NCBI GenBank assembly: GCA_024572335.1
Contig: GCA_024572335.1_3052.1
Strand: one strand, 5' to 3'
DNA length: 64,000 nt
From: a phage
Made by a program: the position numbers and the translations under genes. Positions 61,298 through 63,522 of the stretch are shown one piece after another. Position 1 is the first letter of the stretch. The number at the start of each line of letters is the position of its first letter. The notes below the pieces were generated by a model. The model worked only from the letters and a program-made list of their open reading frames with translations. It did not search any database and was not told the origin of the DNA.

Positions 61298-61327
61298 CGT
61301 TTTGTGAAAAAATTTTTAAAAAGTTTT

Positions 61328-61351
61328 GGGGAATTCTAGGGCAGGGAGGGG
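61328..61351 (+). other. G-quadruplex-forming motif in non-coding DNA
   Basis: GGGG-N7-GGG-N2-GGG-N1-GGGG on the plus strand in an otherwise AT-rich genome. Confidence 0.5.
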
Positions 61352-61434
61352 AAATCAAAGGATAGGATAATATATTATAAAGGGTAGAAACTAAATGATG
61401 TCTAGAGAGGCCTGGAAAGGCCTAGATACCAAAA

Positions 61435-61458
61435 AGCCCCAACCTTTCGGCTAGGGCT
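61435..61458 (-). terminator. Terminator after the IP-like gene (copy 1 of a repeated hairpin)
   Basis: AGCCCxAGCCGAAAGGUUGGGGCU bulged hairpin followed by U5. Confidence 0.65.
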
Positions 61459-61465
61459 AAGAATG

Positions 61466-61939
61466 TTATTTGATTTGTTTAGCAGACCAAATGCGGTCTT
61501 TAATAATTTTTTGGATGTCTTCAACATACTCAAGAGAGTGAGCATGTGGGTTATCTTTGAAACTATAAGCACGAGCTAACTTTTGACCTTCAGTTTTGAT
61601 TACTAAAAGCTCTTTAAGGATAGCTTCATATTTGGAGATAATTCCTTTAACAATATTTTTCTCTTGTGCGACTTTAGGATCTGCTTTAGGAGCAGGTTTA
61701 CCCGAAGCCTTTGCAAAAGCAGCGCCAGTAGCAACTAAACTTTTCCAGGCCATACTAACTGCATTTCCCGTAAATCCTTCTGCTTTCATGTCGCGAGCAA
61801 ATTGGAATCGTGATTCATCAGAAGCATCTTTATAGGAATATTTACCCGCTGCAATGGCTGCTTTTGCGACAGCTTGAATTTCGGTGCTAGACGCTTCATT
61901 TAACACCGCTTCATTTAAAAATTGAGTATATGATTTCAT
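61466..61939 (-). CDS. Internal-protein-like gene with capsid-targeting-like N-terminus
   Basis: 157 aa; N-terminal MKSYTQFLNEA; late promoter TATAAATA upstream; flanked by duplicated terminator hairpins. Confidence 0.5.
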   Translation of the reverse strand: MKSYTQFLNEAVLNEASSTEIQAVAKAAIAAGKYSYKDASDESRFQFARDMKAEGFTGNAVSMAWKSLVATGAAFAKASGKPAPKADPKVAQEKNIVKGIISKYEAILKELLVIKTEGQKLARAYSFKDNPHAHSLEYVEDIQKIIKDRIWSAKQIK

Positions 61940-61975
61940 CTTATTTCCTGTTTTAATTTGTAGATTTAATATACT

Positions 61976-61983
61976 TATTTATA
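61976..61983 (-). promoter_or_regulatory. Late promoter upstream of the IP-like gene
   Basis: TATAAATA on minus strand about 35 nt upstream of ATG 61939. Confidence 0.55.
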
Positions 61984-61989
61984 CTAAAA

Positions 61990-62013
61990 AGCCCCAACCT
62001 TTCGGCTGGGGCT
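61990..62013 (-). terminator. Terminator after the tRNA/stable-RNA region (copy 2 of the repeated hairpin)
   Basis: AGCCCCAGCCGAAAGGUUGGGGCU followed by U5. Confidence 0.7.
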
Positions 62014-62064
62014 AAGCCTTGCGGCAACCTTGTCGGGGTTCCACCTGCTAAGGCAAGTGTTTGT

Positions 62065-62157
62065 ACGAAACGCCGGGATTCGAACCCGGTTATCAAGCAG
62101 TTGACGCTACTCAATATTTTTAAAAGGCCATATCTCGACCATATCCGAACGTTCCGT
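62065..62157 (-). ncRNA. tRNA-like stable RNA candidate (T4 rnaC/rnaD-type)
   Basis: 8-bp acceptor-like stem (ACGGAACG/CGTTTCGT) enclosing a perfect T-arm CCGGG-TTCGAAT-CCCGG but about 60 nt of non-canonical internal sequence. Confidence 0.3.
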
Positions 62158-62324
62158 CAAAAACGCTACTCGGCTTACGGCAAAGATATTTCCTCGAATC
62201 GATAATTCGGTGCGCCGTTTCTGCTGTGATATAAGGGGACATTAACAAAACATAAAGATTTATTAATGCCAGTCCTTAAACAGGGAACATCAGTCCGACG
62301 ACTTACCGGTAGCGACCCGGTTTC

Positions 62325-62675
62325 TTAATATTCTTTTAAAGCATCAATCTGTTCACGGCGTTTACGCCATAAATCAATTGCTTCATACGCAGATTCAGCA
62401 TTTCGAATTAGCCGGCATTTATGTAAAGACTTATGATTTTGATATTGTGTAGATAATGGAATTGTATCTAAAAGGTCTTTACGATCAAAGTATTCGTAAC
62501 CATCTAAACCAAATGAACGATTTTTGAGAAATTGCCAATGGCCAAATTCATTTTCAACATAAACATAATCTGCATGCTGATAAAGTAAATTAATTACACG
62601 TTCAGAAATAGCAGTATCATTATGATTAAAATAGAATGTTAAATCATGAACTACTAAATAAACATTACCTTTCAT
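62325..62675 (-). CDS. Hypothetical protein within the tRNA region
   Basis: Track ORF 62325..62723 starts at TTG inside tRNA-Arg; ATG at 62675 follows SD GAGGA. Confidence 0.4.
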   Translation of the reverse strand: MKGNVYLVVHDLTFYFNHNDTAISERVINLLYQHADYVYVENEFGHWQFLKNRSFGLDGYEYFDRKDLLDTIPLSTQYQNHKSLHKCRLIRNAESAYEAIDLWRKRREQIDALKEY

Positions 62676-62693
62676 ATTTTCCTCACTTATAAT

Positions 62694-62770
<77 letters not shown>

Positions 62771-62777
62771 TATTTTG

Positions 62778-62849
62778 CGGACGTGATAGGATTCGAACCT
62801 ATAACCAATCGCTTAACAGGCGATCGCTCTGCCATTGAGCTACACATCC
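62778..62849 (-). tRNA. tRNA-Asn (anticodon GUU)
   Basis: Acceptor GGATGTG/CACGTCC, D-stem GCTC/GAGC, anticodon stem ATCGC/GCGAT, loop CTGTTAA, T-loop TTCGAAT; CCA not encoded. Confidence 0.8.
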
Positions 62850-62853
62850 AAAT

Positions 62854-62940
62854 TGGTGGGGAGTGGTGGAGTCGAACCACCCGAGTCGCAATGACAATGA
62901 ATTTACAGTCCACACCGCTACCTCTACGGGATAACTCCCC
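62854..62940 (-). tRNA. tRNA-Tyr (anticodon GUA), long variable arm
   Basis: Acceptor GGGGAGT/ACTCCCC, anticodon loop CTGTAAA, variable arm TGTCATTGCGACTCG similar to E. coli tRNA-Tyr; CCA encoded. Confidence 0.75.
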
Positions 62941-62949
62941 AAATTAATT

Positions 62950-63024
62950 TGGTGGCCCTGGGTGGAATTGAACCACCATCTGGCGATTATGAGTCGCTTG
63001 CTTGAACCTTCCAGCTACAGGGCC
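62950..63024 (-). tRNA. tRNA-Ile (anticodon CAU, lysidine-type as in T4) or Met
   Basis: Acceptor GGCCCTG/CAGGGCC, anticodon loop CTCATAA, T-arm GGTGG-TTCAATT-CCACC; CCA encoded. Confidence 0.75.
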
Positions 63025-63025
63025 T

Positions 63026-63101
63026 TGGTGCTGATTAACGGAATCGAACCGCCGACCTTCTCATTACAAGTGAGTTGCTCTACCTACTGAGCTAAATCAG
63101 C
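63026..63101 (-). tRNA. tRNA-Thr (anticodon UGU)
   Basis: Acceptor GCTGATT, D-stem GCTC/GAGC, anticodon loop CTTGTAA, T-loop TTCGATT; CCA encoded. Confidence 0.85.
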
Positions 63102-63106
63102 AAAAC

Positions 63107-63196
63107 TGGCGGAGGCGATAGGATTTGAACCTATGAGTCGCCGGAGCGACTGCCGGTTTTCAAGACCGGTGCATTAAACCACTCTGCCACGCCTCC
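63107..63196 (-). tRNA. tRNA-Ser (anticodon UGA), long variable arm
   Basis: Acceptor GGAGGCG, anticodon stem CCGGT/ACCGG, loop CTTGAAA, long variable arm; CCA encoded. Confidence 0.85.
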
Positions 63197-63198
63197 AG

Positions 63199-63272
63199 TC
63201 TCCATACAAGGATTTGAACCTTGGACCTCCTGATCCCAAATCAGGCGCTCTACCAAACTGAGCTACACGGAG
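63199..63272 (-). tRNA. tRNA-Pro (anticodon UGG)
   Basis: Acceptor CTCCGTG, anticodon stem CCTGA/TCAGG, loop TTTGGGA, T-loop TTCAAAT; CCA not encoded. Confidence 0.85.
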
Positions 63273-63282
63273 TAAATTAAAT

Positions 63283-63356
<74 letters not shown>

Positions 63357-63361
63357 AAATT

Positions 63362-63448
63362 TGGTGCGAGAAGTGGGACTCGAACCCACAAGGAAATCAT
63401 TCCGCAGCATTTTAAGTGCTGTGCCTTTACCAATTTGACCATTCTCGC
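63362..63448 (-). tRNA. tRNA-Leu (anticodon UAA), long variable arm
   Basis: Acceptor GCGAGAA, anticodon stem CAGCA/TGCTG, loop CTTAAAA, long variable arm, T-loop TTCGAGT; CCA encoded. Confidence 0.85.
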
Positions 63449-63449
63449 G

Positions 63450-63522
63450 CTGGGAATAAAGGACTCGAACCTTTGCATCCTGGAATCAAAATCCAGTGCC
63501 TTACCAACTTGGCTAATTCCCA
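63450..63522 (-). tRNA. tRNA-Gln (anticodon UUG)
   Basis: Acceptor TGGGAAT/ATTCCCA, anticodon stem CTGGA/TCCAG, loop TTTTGAT; CCA not encoded; separated from tRNA-Leu by 1 nt. Confidence 0.85.

What the first reader, a model, noticed from the sequence alone, without database searches (positions are those of the whole stretch)
62020..62330. tRNA-like stable RNA candidate downstream of tRNA-Arg
The segment contains a perfect T-arm (CCGGG-TTCGAAT-CCCGG) closed by an 8-bp acceptor-like helix, but with about 60 nt of internal sequence that does not fold as D and anticodon arms. This resembles the RNase-P-processed small stable RNAs (species 1 and 2) that accompany the T4 tRNA cluster, whose function is still unknown. 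The rest of 62160..62330 is also non-coding and relatively GC-rich.
Basis: partly seen in the sequence, partly recalled or inferred. Interest (0 to 1): 0.45.

Follow-up and report, generated by a model that had tools for sequence, protein, structure and literature searches.

The report
T4 species 1 and 2 RNAs
The flagged stretch holds this T4-type phage's copies of two long-known small stable RNAs (rnaD/species 2 and rnaC/species 1) that ride in the phage tRNA operon; the RNAs are ordinary for such phages, and what they do is still unknown after 50 years.

Summary
The window end comes from a Tequatrovirus (100% identical here to Shigella phage ESH35). It carries a T2-like cluster of 10 tRNA genes on the minus strand.

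The finding is real and already known. On the minus strand, 62329..62208 is the ortholog of T4 rnaD (species 2 RNA). 62202..62062 is the ortholog of T4 rnaC (species 1 RNA; 136/139 identical). A conserved ~48-nt trailer and an intrinsic terminator follow.

Covariance models built only from other phage genera, or from other rnaD subtypes, hit exactly these intervals (146.5 bits, E=2e-34; 107.6 bits, E=1e-26).

Its 8-bp "acceptor" helix is present in the sequence but is not the conserved pairing:
- In 20 homologs the 3' strand pairs with the RNA's 5' end (CGAUUCG/CGUUUCG).
- That helix has two invariant U·U mismatches and one compensatory A-U to G-C change.

rnaC is a four-way, tRNA-shaped RNA without D or anticodon arms. 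A 6-bp loop-loop contact is likely. rnaD is a 5' hairpin plus a long irregular helix.

No Rfam family covers either RNA, and the literature through 2025 calls their function unknown. My best guess for the function is a tRNA mimic or decoy; this is inference only.

The parts
62208..62329 (-). rnaD (species 2 RNA) ortholog, ~120 nt. Its 5' leader overlaps the TAA stop of the trna.2-like ORF (62327..62325).
   Evidence: The T4T rnaD annotation maps to 62329..62209 and the T2L annotation to 62328..62208. Identity to T4T is 105/121. Model R2, built from 8 homologs that carry other apical-hairpin types, hits 62330..62207 with 107.6 bits, E=1e-26. In the consensus structure 98% of cells are paired and 7 pairs show compensatory changes.
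62305..62321 (-). rnaD hairpin H1: a 5-bp stem with the invariant 7-nt loop GUCGCUA. It has the dimensions of a T-arm.
   Evidence: Compensatory changes occur at two stem pairs (AU:18 GC:4; CG:22 AU:1), and the loop is invariant in 23 sequences. The '+ strand terminator-like' hit is this hairpin read on the wrong strand.
62210..62302 (-). rnaD body. It comprises terminal helix H2 (62302..62296 with 62217..62210), a conserved internal loop GACUGA/GAAA, helix H3 (62289..62286 with 62225..62222), and a variable apical hairpin.
   Evidence: H3 pair 42/113 reads UA:12, AU:8, GC:1. The apical hairpin exists in three unrelated sequence versions among the homologs.
62203..62207 (-). 5-nt spacer AAUUA between rnaD and rnaC. 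The same kind of spacer separates an upstream tRNA's CCA from rnaC in other genera.
62062..62202 (-). rnaC (species 1 RNA) ortholog, ~140 nt: a tRNA-shaped four-way junction.
   Evidence: The T4T rnaC annotation maps to 62202..62064 and the T2L annotation to 62201..62062. Identity to T4T is 136/139. Model R1, built from 17 non-Tequatrovirus homologs, hits 62202..62059 with 146.5 bits, E=1.9e-34, and this is its only hit in the window. The MFE fold has z=-3.5. The consensus is 98.7% paired, with 20 pairs showing compensatory changes. The RNAC probe oligo in PMC9697503 starts TCGATTCGAGG, which is this 5' end.
62195..62201 (-). rnaC P1 5' strand CGAUUCG. It pairs with 62072..62066 (CGUUUCG) to form a 7-position acceptor-like helix with two invariant central U·U mismatches.
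   Evidence: All five Watson-Crick pairs are kept in 20/20 sequences. Pair 4/138 reads GC:17, AU:3, which is compensatory. The U·U columns are invariant.
62128..62191 (-). rnaC P3 long hairpin, in the position of the D-arm and closed by P2 (62194..62192 with 62127..62125). Its apical loop is UUGACG (62160..62155).
Evidence: The stem is replaced wholesale in Karamvirus and Marfavirus, yet the loop UUG(A/G)CG is retained.
62091..62116 (-). rnaC P4 hairpin, in the position of the anticodon arm but with a 6-nt loop CGUCAA (62106..62101). The loop is complementary to the P3 loop, giving a proposed 6-bp kissing contact.
   Evidence: The P4 stem has 7 of 9 pairs with compensatory changes. The loop-loop pairing is 100% kept in 20/20 sequences, with one compensatory A-U to G-C change in 5 Marfavirus sequences; slid controls give 16-50% paired.
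62073..62089 (-). rnaC T-arm CCGGG-UUCGAAU-CCCGG. It abuts the P1 3' strand directly, as in a tRNA.
   Evidence: Pair 119/131 reads UA:13, GC:6, AU:1.
62014..62061 (-). Conserved 3' trailer with three small hairpins (62059..62042, 62040..62026, 62025..62016).
   Evidence: The fold has z=-3.9. The trailer is nearly invariant in Tequatrovirus, Dhakavirus and Gaprivervirus, and follows rnaD directly where rnaC is absent.
61985..62013 (-). Intrinsic terminator of the tRNA/rnaD/rnaC transcription unit (10-bp stem, GAAA loop, U-tract).
   Evidence: PMC2330249 states that the T4 tRNA-cluster transcript terminates after the species I RNA gene.

Best explanation
The interval encodes, on the minus strand, the two small stable RNAs of T-even phages: rnaD (species 2, 62329..62208) and rnaC (species 1, 62202..62062). 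A conserved trailer and the operon terminator follow.

Both RNAs are passengers of the phage tRNA operon. They are transcribed with the tRNAs and cut out by the host tRNA-processing machinery.

rnaC has the top half of a tRNA: a 7-position acceptor helix stacked on a canonical 5-bp T-arm, with a 3' tail U-A-CAA. In the positions of the D and anticodon arms it carries a long hairpin (P3) and a 10-bp hairpin with a 6-nt loop (P4). The loops of P3 and P4 are complementary and probably kiss.

The tRNA-like top half gives RNase P its 5' cleavage site, which also releases the rnaD 3' end. It also gives the 3' trimming and CCA-repair enzymes their substrate. That is why the RNA is excised and stable.

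rnaD is not tRNA-shaped. It has an A-rich leader, a T-arm-sized hairpin with an invariant loop, and a long irregular helix closed by the RNA's 3' end.

What is shown here: identity, boundaries, structures and distribution. What rests on established T4 knowledge: excision by tRNA-processing enzymes. What is inference only (about 30%): having no anticodon, rnaC cannot decode, and it most likely acts as a tRNA mimic that occupies a host factor which recognises the tRNA acceptor/T-arm, for example a tRNA-targeting defence nuclease. rnaD may likewise be a host-specific accessory RNA.
For: Homology and synteny:
- 806 phage records match the region. T4T and T2L annotate the matched region as rnaD and rnaC, in the same order after tRNA-Arg.
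- Identity to T4T is 136/139 for rnaC and 105/121 for rnaD.
- Independent covariance models hit exactly these intervals.

Structure:
- Covariation supports all helices of both RNAs.
- The kissing loops are complementary in 20/20 sequences with one compensatory event.

Processing context:
- In other genera rnaC sits directly between tRNA genes, e.g. EcS1 tRNA-Phe-CCA + 4 nt + rnaC + tRNA-Trp.
- rnaD starts right after a tRNA's CCA in T4, JS98, sb4 and A5-4.
- The rnaC model gives weak hits (13-19 bits) on ordinary tRNAs, which shows the shared top half.

Expression in T4:
- Both RNAs accumulate late and are detected by Northern blot (PMC9697503).
- They are made from the ~1.75-kb tRNA precursor, which terminates after the species I gene (PMC2330249).

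Hint of a host-specific role:
- A single convergent SNP in rnaD arose in all three lines of a T4-like phage adapting to E. coli ECOR34. The virulence index rose from 0.17 to 0.98 (PMC12685909).
- Phage tRNA arrays are known counter-defence loci (PMC11555353, PMC10264068).
- There is no copy in 5,426 E. coli genomes or 72,556 plasmids.
Against: No experiment assigns a function; reviews and omics papers up to 2025 call it unknown. The decoy idea is by analogy only.

- No binding partner is known, and the P4 loop is not anticodon-like.
- In Winklervirus and Kanagawavirus the rnaC T-loop is UGCAUUC/UGCAUGC. This weakens any model that needs canonical T-loop recognition.
- The kissing contact rests on one evolutionary event.
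- The exact mature ends come from database annotation of T4 and T2L, not from data on this phage. It is not settled here whether the 3' end is repaired to CCA.
- The convergent SNP could have been standing variation in the ancestral stock.
Confidence: 0.85

Rival explanations
1. One reading: a ~93-nt tRNA-like RNA (62157..62065) closed by the 8-bp helix ACGGAACG/CGUUUCGU next to the T-arm. That is a tRNA-Sec-like 8/5 top half with an aberrant 59-nt interior.
For: The helix exists in this sequence. Rfam tRNA-Sec gives a weak full-length alignment of exactly this span (16.4 bits, E=4.9). 83% of cells still pair across homologs.
Against: Pair 49/138 is broken in 15/20 homologs and pair 50/137 in 8/20, with no compensatory change. 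The U-to-C change in the 3' strand is compensated at the 5' end of the 140-nt RNA, not at the internal site. The internal segment is replaced in Karamvirus and Marfavirus. The fold costs 13.3 kcal/mol in the full RNA. The T4 and T2L annotations and the published RNAC probe place the 5' end 45 nt further upstream (PMC9697503). The tRNA-Sec score is far below the gathering score of 47.
Confidence: 0.04
2. The interval encodes small proteins, as many GenBank phage records annotate ('hypothetical protein' x3 under the match).
For: Mechanical ORFs of 34-53 aa with TTG starts overlap the region. Several deposited genomes annotate CDSs there.
Against: Homologs differ by single-nucleotide indels and by wholesale replacement of hairpins while base pairing is kept. 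In total 27 pairs show compensatory changes. GC content and fold z-scores are RNA-like. T4 makes stable RNAs from this DNA (PMC9697503, PMC2330249).
Confidence: 0.02
3. rnaC and rnaD act in cis only. They would be structured spacers or 3' caps that guide processing of the polycistronic tRNA precursor and protect it from 3' exonucleases, with no function once released.
For: They are always inside or at the end of tRNA arrays, next to a terminator in Tequatrovirus and Dhakavirus. They depend on tRNA-processing signals.
Against: The released RNAs accumulate as abundant stable species late in T4 infection (PMC9697503). Loops and internal loops that are irrelevant to end protection are invariant across genera: GUCGCUA, GACUGA/GAAA, UUGACG/CGUCAA and the U·U pairs. 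In EcS1, Karamvirus and A5-4 the RNAs lie mid-array, not at the 3' end. Many T4-like phages have tRNA arrays without one or the other RNA.
Confidence: 0.12
4. They are trans-acting base-pairing riboregulators of phage or host mRNAs.
For: They have conserved single-stranded segments: the rnaD leader AAGAAA, CCCUG, and the rnaC A-rich linker. PMC9697503 calls them 'small regulatory RNAs'. The rnaD H1 loop CGCUAC is complementary to GUAGCG, which occurs twice in rnaC.
Against: No target is known. [quoted passage not shown] The RNAs are tightly folded and have no terminator hairpin plus U-tail of their own. Each occurs without the other in several genera.
Confidence: 0.12
5. rnaC is a decayed tRNA gene, a pseudogene without function.
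For: It has a tRNA-like top half and lies in a tRNA array, yet no tRNA detector calls it.
Against: The sequence is conserved from Tequatrovirus to Marfavirus, with compensatory changes in every helix and invariant loops. The RNA is stable and abundant in T4.
Confidence: 0.02

Closest known systems
Bacteriophage T4/T2 rnaC (species 1 RNA, ~140 nt)
   Same: It is the ortholog. Identity to T4T is 136/139. It has the same position downstream of rnaD and upstream of the trailer and terminator, and the same T-arm and ends. It is recovered by a model built from other genera.
   Different: Only 3 substitutions relative to T4T. As in T2L, the upstream neighbourhood carries a trna.2-like ORF between tRNA-Arg and rnaD, and there is no segB.
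Bacteriophage T4/T2 rnaD (species 2 RNA, ~120 nt)
   Same: It is the ortholog. The 5' hairpin, terminal helix and internal loops are identical, and the position is the same.
   Different: The apical hairpin differs from T4T: 105/121 identity overall, and only 88/121 to T2L, which carries an unrelated apical hairpin. Here the 5' leader overlaps an ORF stop codon instead of abutting the CCA of tRNA-Arg.
Canonical tRNA (Rfam RF00005)
   Same: rnaC shares the four-way junction topology, a 5-bp T-arm with a UUCGAAU loop abutting the acceptor 3' strand, location in a tRNA array, and presumed RNase P and 3' end processing.
   Different: rnaC has no D-arm, no 7-nt anticodon loop and no variable region. 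Its acceptor helix has two U·U mismatches, and CCA is not encoded (the tail is CAA). ARAGORN and RF00005 do not call it.
tRNA mimics that keep only the acceptor/T-arm half (tmRNA tRNA-like domain; bacterial YrlA Y-RNA-like RNAs; plant-virus tRNA-like structures)
   Same: The design principle is the same: the tRNA top half is kept for recognition by tRNA enzymes, and the rest is replaced by another module.
   Different: There is no tag reading frame and no G3·U70. ARAGORN finds no tmRNA. Rfam reports no tmRNA, YrlA or TLS hit even at E up to 10. The resemblance is architectural, recalled from general knowledge, and not a tested homology.

Membership tests
T-even phage rnaC (species 1 RNA) | Sequence homology to the annotated T4/T2 rnaC gene | tested here: met
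   136/139 identical to T4T rnaC and 135/139 to T2L.
T-even phage rnaC (species 1 RNA) | Conserved secondary structure: terminal acceptor-like helix, long hairpin, second hairpin, T-arm | tested here: met
   Model R1, built from 17 non-Tequatrovirus homologs, gives a full-length hit at 62202..62059 with 146.5 bits, E=1.9e-34. The MFE fold of the window sequence equals the consensus.
T-even phage rnaC (species 1 RNA) | Position in the tRNA operon, same strand, before the operon terminator | tested here: met
   tRNA cluster 63522..62694(-), rnaD, rnaC, trailer, terminator 62013..61990(-).
T-even phage rnaC (species 1 RNA) | Accumulates as a stable ~140-nt RNA, matured from the tRNA precursor (RNase P-dependent 5' end) | not testable with these tools
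   Known for T4 (PMC9697503 Northern blot; PMC2330249; classical literature from memory). There are no expression data for this phage.
T-even phage rnaD (species 2 RNA) | Sequence homology to the annotated T4/T2 rnaD gene and position immediately 5' of rnaC | tested here: met
   105/121 identical to T4T. A 5-nt spacer separates it from rnaC, as in T4 and T2L.
T-even phage rnaD (species 2 RNA) | Conserved core structure: H1 hairpin with GUCGCUA loop, terminal helix, GACUGA/GAAA loop, H3 | tested here: met
   Model R2, built from 8 homologs of other subtypes, hits 62330..62207 with 107.6 bits, E=1e-26. Covariation is shown.
Canonical tRNA | Cloverleaf with D-arm, anticodon arm with 7-nt loop, and T-arm; score at or above the Rfam RF00005 gathering score, or an ARAGORN call | tested here: not met
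   ARAGORN finds 10 tRNAs, none in 62020..62330. There is no RF00005 hit here at gathering threshold or at E up to 10. The P4 loop has 6 nt.
tRNA-Sec (RF01852) | Score at or above the gathering score of 47 bits; 8/5 acceptor/T architecture conserved | tested here: not met
   16.4 bits, E=4.9. The 8-bp helix it relies on is not conserved.
tmRNA | tRNA-like domain plus tag-peptide reading frame | tested here: not met
   ARAGORN reports no tmRNA in the window. There is no Rfam tmRNA hit.

The most novel reading that the evidence does not exclude
rnaC is a rigid tRNA-shaped mimic. Two invariant U·U mismatches mark its acceptor helix, and a 6-bp kissing contact (UUGACG x CGUCAA) locks the hairpins that stand in for the D and anticodon arms. 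Together with the independently mobile rnaD, which is also found in the tRNA array of a Vequintavirinae phage, it forms an accessory counter-defence or host-range module of phage tRNA arrays. This module would titrate a host factor that recognises the tRNA acceptor/T-arm.
Probability: 0.15. Interest if true: 0.7.

Novelty: already known. Interest (0 to 1): 0.25.

Why it matters
As a genome feature this is a re-identification. [quoted passage not shown]

It still matters in three modest ways:
- Most deposited T4-like genomes leave these genes unannotated or cover them with spurious "hypothetical protein" CDSs. Rfam has no family for either RNA. The alignments and models made here would fix that.
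- Their function is a 50-year-old open question. The comparative structures give concrete, mutable targets for experiments: the true acceptor helix with invariant U·U pairs, the candidate kissing loops, the invariant rnaD loops, and the conserved trailer.
- Three observations fit an accessory, host-dependent role in the current picture of phage tRNA arrays as counter-defence loci. The two RNAs have modular, independent distributions. rnaD occurs in an unrelated myovirus subfamily. And an adaptive SNP in rnaD has been published.

Tried and rejected
- **Rfam search.** At gathering threshold over the whole window, and at E up to 10 over 61300..62700, the only hits in the interval are chance-level (isrK, tRNA-Sec, anti-hemB).
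- **ARAGORN.** No tRNA or tmRNA in the interval.
Tested by pair counts and by constrained folding, and rejected.
- **Coding potential of the overlapping ORFs.** Rejected on indel and covariation grounds.
- **Pfam on the flanking ORFs** (trna.2-like, 157 aa, 95 aa). No families.
- **Pattern scan of metagenome contigs** for more diverse rnaC. The rnaC model confirmed only one of them (L062), and that one is identical to a known Marfavirus copy, so it added nothing.
- **IMG/VR pattern scans.** These gave 12 true rnaC loci plus one false positive (L022), and 14 rnaD loci.
- **Search for copies in E. coli genomes and plasmids.** None.
- **Literature searches for a function or for the processing papers**. 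No functional study was found. Miller et al. 2003 (PMC150520) is not held, so statements about RNase P processing, CCA repair and viability of deletion mutants rest on my memory of the classical T4 literature.
- **K-turn reading of the rnaD GACUGA/GAAA loop, and a permuted-tRNA reading of rnaD H1+H2.** Neither fits the consensus cleanly, so I left both as open ideas.
- **Late-promoter motif TATAAATA.** None lies upstream of rnaD inside the cluster. The one at 61983..61976 belongs to the next gene.
Full report
**Context.** The last 3 kb of the window carry ten tRNA genes on the minus strand, at 63522..62694: Gln, Leu, Gly, Pro, Ser, Thr, Met, Tyr, Asn, Arg. A 116-aa ORF follows at 62675..62325, and then the flagged interval. 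A blastn search of 61940..62340 against 50,697 phage records gave 806 matching records. Almost all are T4-like coliphages or Shigella phages, and the best is Shigella phage ESH35 at 100% identity. The window is therefore from a Tequatrovirus with a T2-like tRNA cluster.

**Checking the observation.**
- The perfect T-arm is real. It lies on the minus strand at 62089..62073, one base off my first estimate.
- The 8-bp helix ACGGAACG (62157..62150) / CGUUUCGU (62072..62065) can be drawn, with 59 nt between it and the T-arm.
- No tRNA detector calls a gene there. The permissive Rfam search gave only a chance-level tRNA-Sec alignment of that span: 16.4 bits against a gathering score of 47, E=4.9.
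- The interval has 45.7% GC against 34.4% for the window.

The description is accurate as far as it goes.

**What it is.** Two records in the phage collection annotate the matched DNA. T4T annotates rnaD ("small, stable RNA; species 2 RNA") and rnaC ("species 1 RNA"). T2L annotates rnaD and rnaC after tRNA-Arg and a trna.2 ORF.

A three-way alignment and coordinate transfer place the genes as follows:
- rnaD at window 62329..62208 (minus strand).
- rnaC at window 62202..62062 (minus strand).

Identity to T4T is 136/139 for rnaC and 105/121 for rnaD. The RNAC Northern probe published for T4 begins TCGATTCGAGG, which is exactly the 5' end mapped here (PMC9697503).

**Independent membership test.** I collected homologs from other genera:
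- rnaC from Kagamiyamavirus, Winklervirus, Kanagawavirus, Karamvirus, Moonvirus, Marfavirus and IMG/VR contigs.
- rnaD from Dhakavirus, Mosigvirus, Gaprivervirus, one Vequintavirinae phage and IMG/VR contigs.

A covariance model built from 17 non-Tequatrovirus rnaC sequences has a single hit in the 64-kb window: 62202..62059, full length, 146.5 bits, E=1.9e-34. A model built from 8 rnaD sequences whose apical hairpin is of a different type from the window's hits 62330..62207 with 107.6 bits, E=1e-26.

**Structure of rnaC.** In 20 distinct sequences the RNAalifold consensus and explicit pair counts give a four-way junction:
- **P1.** CG(A/G)UUCG at the 5' end pairs with CGUU(U/C)CG at the 3' end. 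This is seven positions with two invariant central U·U mismatches. The third pair switches A-U to G-C (3 vs 17 sequences).
- **P2.** AGG/CCU.
- **P3.** A long hairpin whose stem shows many compensatory changes and is replaced outright in Karamvirus and Marfavirus.
- **Linker.** A-rich.
- **P4.** A 9-10-bp hairpin with a 6-nt loop; 7 of 9 pairs show compensatory changes.
- **T-arm.** After one nucleotide, the 5-bp T-arm abuts the P1 3' strand as in a tRNA.
- **Tail.** U(A/C)CAA.

Overall 98.7% of cells pair, against 38-49% in the slid controls.

The window sequence's own MFE fold is this structure (-49.3 kcal/mol, z=-3.5).

It uses the same 3' strand but an internal partner that lies in the apical part of P3.
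- Across homologs one of its pairs is broken in 15/20, another in 8/20, and nothing compensates.
- The U-to-C change in the 3' strand is matched by A-to-G at the 5' terminus. The internal site changes G-to-A, which is the wrong way.
- Forcing the helix costs 13.3 kcal/mol.

The native acceptor-like helix is therefore the terminal one, consistent with a ~140-nt RNA rather than a ~93-nt one.

**A candidate tertiary contact.** The P3 apical loop UUG(A/G)CG (window 62160..62155) is complementary to the P4 loop CG(U/C)CAA (62106..62101).
- All six pairs hold in 20/20 sequences, although the P3 stem below the loop is unrelated between lineages.
- The five Marfavirus sequences carry the compensatory A-U to G-C change.
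- Slid controls give 16-50% pairing.

This is one evolutionary event, so I rate the kissing contact as likely, not proven. I could not check whether it has been described before.

**Structure of rnaD.** In 23 distinct sequences rnaD consists of:
- a ~9-nt A-rich leader;
- hairpin H1 (62321..62305), with 5 bp and the invariant loop GUCGCUA, and two stem pairs showing compensatory changes;
- the dinucleotide AA;
- terminal helix H2 (GUCGUCG with CGGCG-C-AC);
- a conserved internal loop GACUGA/GAAA;
- helix H3, whose first pair occurs as U-A (12), A-U (8) and G-C (1);
- a small CCC/A loop;
- an apical hairpin that exists in three unrelated versions (T4/window type, T2 type, JS98/A5-4 type).

98% of cells pair, against 29-47% in the slid controls. 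rnaD is not tRNA-shaped. Its 3' end closes the long helix and leaves only a 1-2-nt overhang.

**Biogenesis (partly shown, partly established knowledge).**
- In EcS1, rnaC lies between tRNA-Phe (ending in CCA), a 4-nt spacer and tRNA-Trp. In Karamvirus it lies between tRNA-Trp and tRNA-Gly.
- In T4, JS98, sb4 and the Vequintavirinae phage A5-4, rnaD begins right after the CCA of a tRNA.
- The spacer between rnaD and rnaC (AAUUA) resembles the spacer between a tRNA and rnaC elsewhere.

It follows that RNase P cleavage at the rnaC 5' end separates the two RNAs, and that 3' trimming stops at the terminal helices. That RNase P is the enzyme, and that the non-encoded CCA is repaired, is my recollection of the classical T4 literature. 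I could not retrieve those papers.

**Surroundings.**
- Downstream of rnaC a 48-nt trailer folds into three small hairpins. It is almost invariant across Tequatrovirus, Dhakavirus and Gaprivervirus. In Dhakavirus, which lacks rnaC, it follows rnaD directly.
- Then comes the terminator at 62013..61990.
- A near-identical terminator copy lies at 61458..61435, and the sequence after it continues like T4 after its single copy. This phage therefore carries a ~555-bp cassette inserted relative to T4. The cassette consists of the T4 late-promoter consensus TATAAATA (named from memory) at 61983..61976 and a 157-aa ORF with no Pfam match.

**Function.** Nothing in the searchable literature assigns one:
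- "their biological roles are unknown" (PMC3014915, 2010);
- "RNAs of yet unknown functions", late-accumulating and Northern-validated (PMC9697503, 2022);
- "unknown function" (PMC12685909, 2025).

PMC12685909 reports that all three lines of a T4-like phage evolved on the semi-permissive E. coli ECOR34 acquired one and the same SNP, inside rnaD. The virulence index rose from 0.17 to 0.98.

Several observations point the same way:
- the RNAs reside in tRNA arrays;
- the two RNAs come and go independently between genera;
- rnaD has been transferred into an unrelated myovirus subfamily;
- neither occurs in E. coli genomes or plasmids;
- phage tRNAs have a recent, documented role in escaping tRNA-targeting defences (PMC11555353, PMC10264068, PMC12409363).

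From these I commit to the following as the most likely mechanism, at roughly 30%. rnaC keeps exactly the part of a tRNA that acceptor/T-arm-binding enzymes read, and it has lost the decoding part. It therefore acts as a mimic that occupies such a factor. rnaD is a second host-specific accessory RNA. This is inference.

The main rivals are a purely cis role in precursor processing and a base-pairing regulatory role, at about 12% each. The remainder is simply unknown.

**Verdict.** The interest is modest. These are known genes that are poorly annotated and absent from Rfam, and the comparative structures derived here make their old open question somewhat more testable.

Noticed in passing
window 62014..62061 (-): A conserved 48-nt trailer lies between rnaC and the terminator and folds into three small hairpins. 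It is nearly invariant in Tequatrovirus, Dhakavirus and Gaprivervirus. It follows rnaD directly where rnaC is absent, and in Gaprivervirus L031 it lies ~500 nt away from rnaD. Its third hairpin switches from GCC-GCAA-GGC to ACC-CUA-GGU. Its function is unknown; it could be a processing signal or a third RNA element.
   Followed up: partly
window 61435..62013 (-): The operon terminator (62013..61990) is duplicated almost exactly at 61458..61435. Between the copies lie the motif TATAAATA (61983..61976; the T4 late-promoter consensus, named from memory) and a 157-aa ORF (61939..61466, no Pfam family). After the second copy the sequence continues like T4 after its single terminator. This looks like a gene cassette inserted between duplicated regulatory hairpins.
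   Followed up: partly
L005 1418..1623 (Escherichia phage A5-4, Vequintavirinae): A clear rnaD homolog follows tRNA-Tyr directly, inside the tRNA array (Met, Tyr, rnaD, Gly, Gln, Pro) of a phage subfamily unrelated to T4. Its H1 and H3 stems carry compensatory changes. This implies horizontal transfer of rnaD between phage tRNA arrays.
   Followed up: partly
hits (e.g. ON528745.1, MK373786.1, ON528736.1): Many deposited T4-like genomes annotate one to three 'hypothetical protein' CDSs over rnaD/rnaC, or nothing at all. Only a few (T4T, T2L, RB5, RB55) carry the RNA features. Rfam 15 has no family for either RNA.
   Followed up: no
L006 402..546 and L007 406..550 (Kosakonia phage Kc304, Enterobacter phage CIP9): In these rnaC homologs the canonical T-loop UUCGAAU is replaced by UGCAUUC or UGCAUGC, while the T-stem and everything else are kept. 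Canonical T-loop recognition is therefore apparently not essential for this RNA.
   Followed up: no
window 62305..62321 and 62091..62170 (-): rnaC contains GAGUAGCGU twice, once in P3 and once in P4. The GUAGCG within it is perfectly complementary to the invariant rnaD H1 loop (CGCUAC). This could be chance or an rnaC-rnaD contact. It cannot be tested by covariation because the loop never varies, and each RNA also occurs without the other.
   Followed up: no
window 62305..62321 (+): The consensus scan reports a '+ strand terminator-like' site here. It is the rnaD H1 hairpin read on the wrong strand, followed by the A-rich leader's complement, so it is an artefact of the scan.
   Followed up: yes
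window 62325..62675 (-): A 116-aa ORF homologous to T2L trna.2 sits between tRNA-Arg and rnaD, where T4 has nothing; T4 instead has segB upstream of tRNA-Arg. Its TAA stop (62327..62325) lies inside the annotated rnaD 5' leader. In this phage the rnaD 5' end therefore cannot come from 3' processing of tRNA-Arg, as it can in T4.
   Followed up: partly
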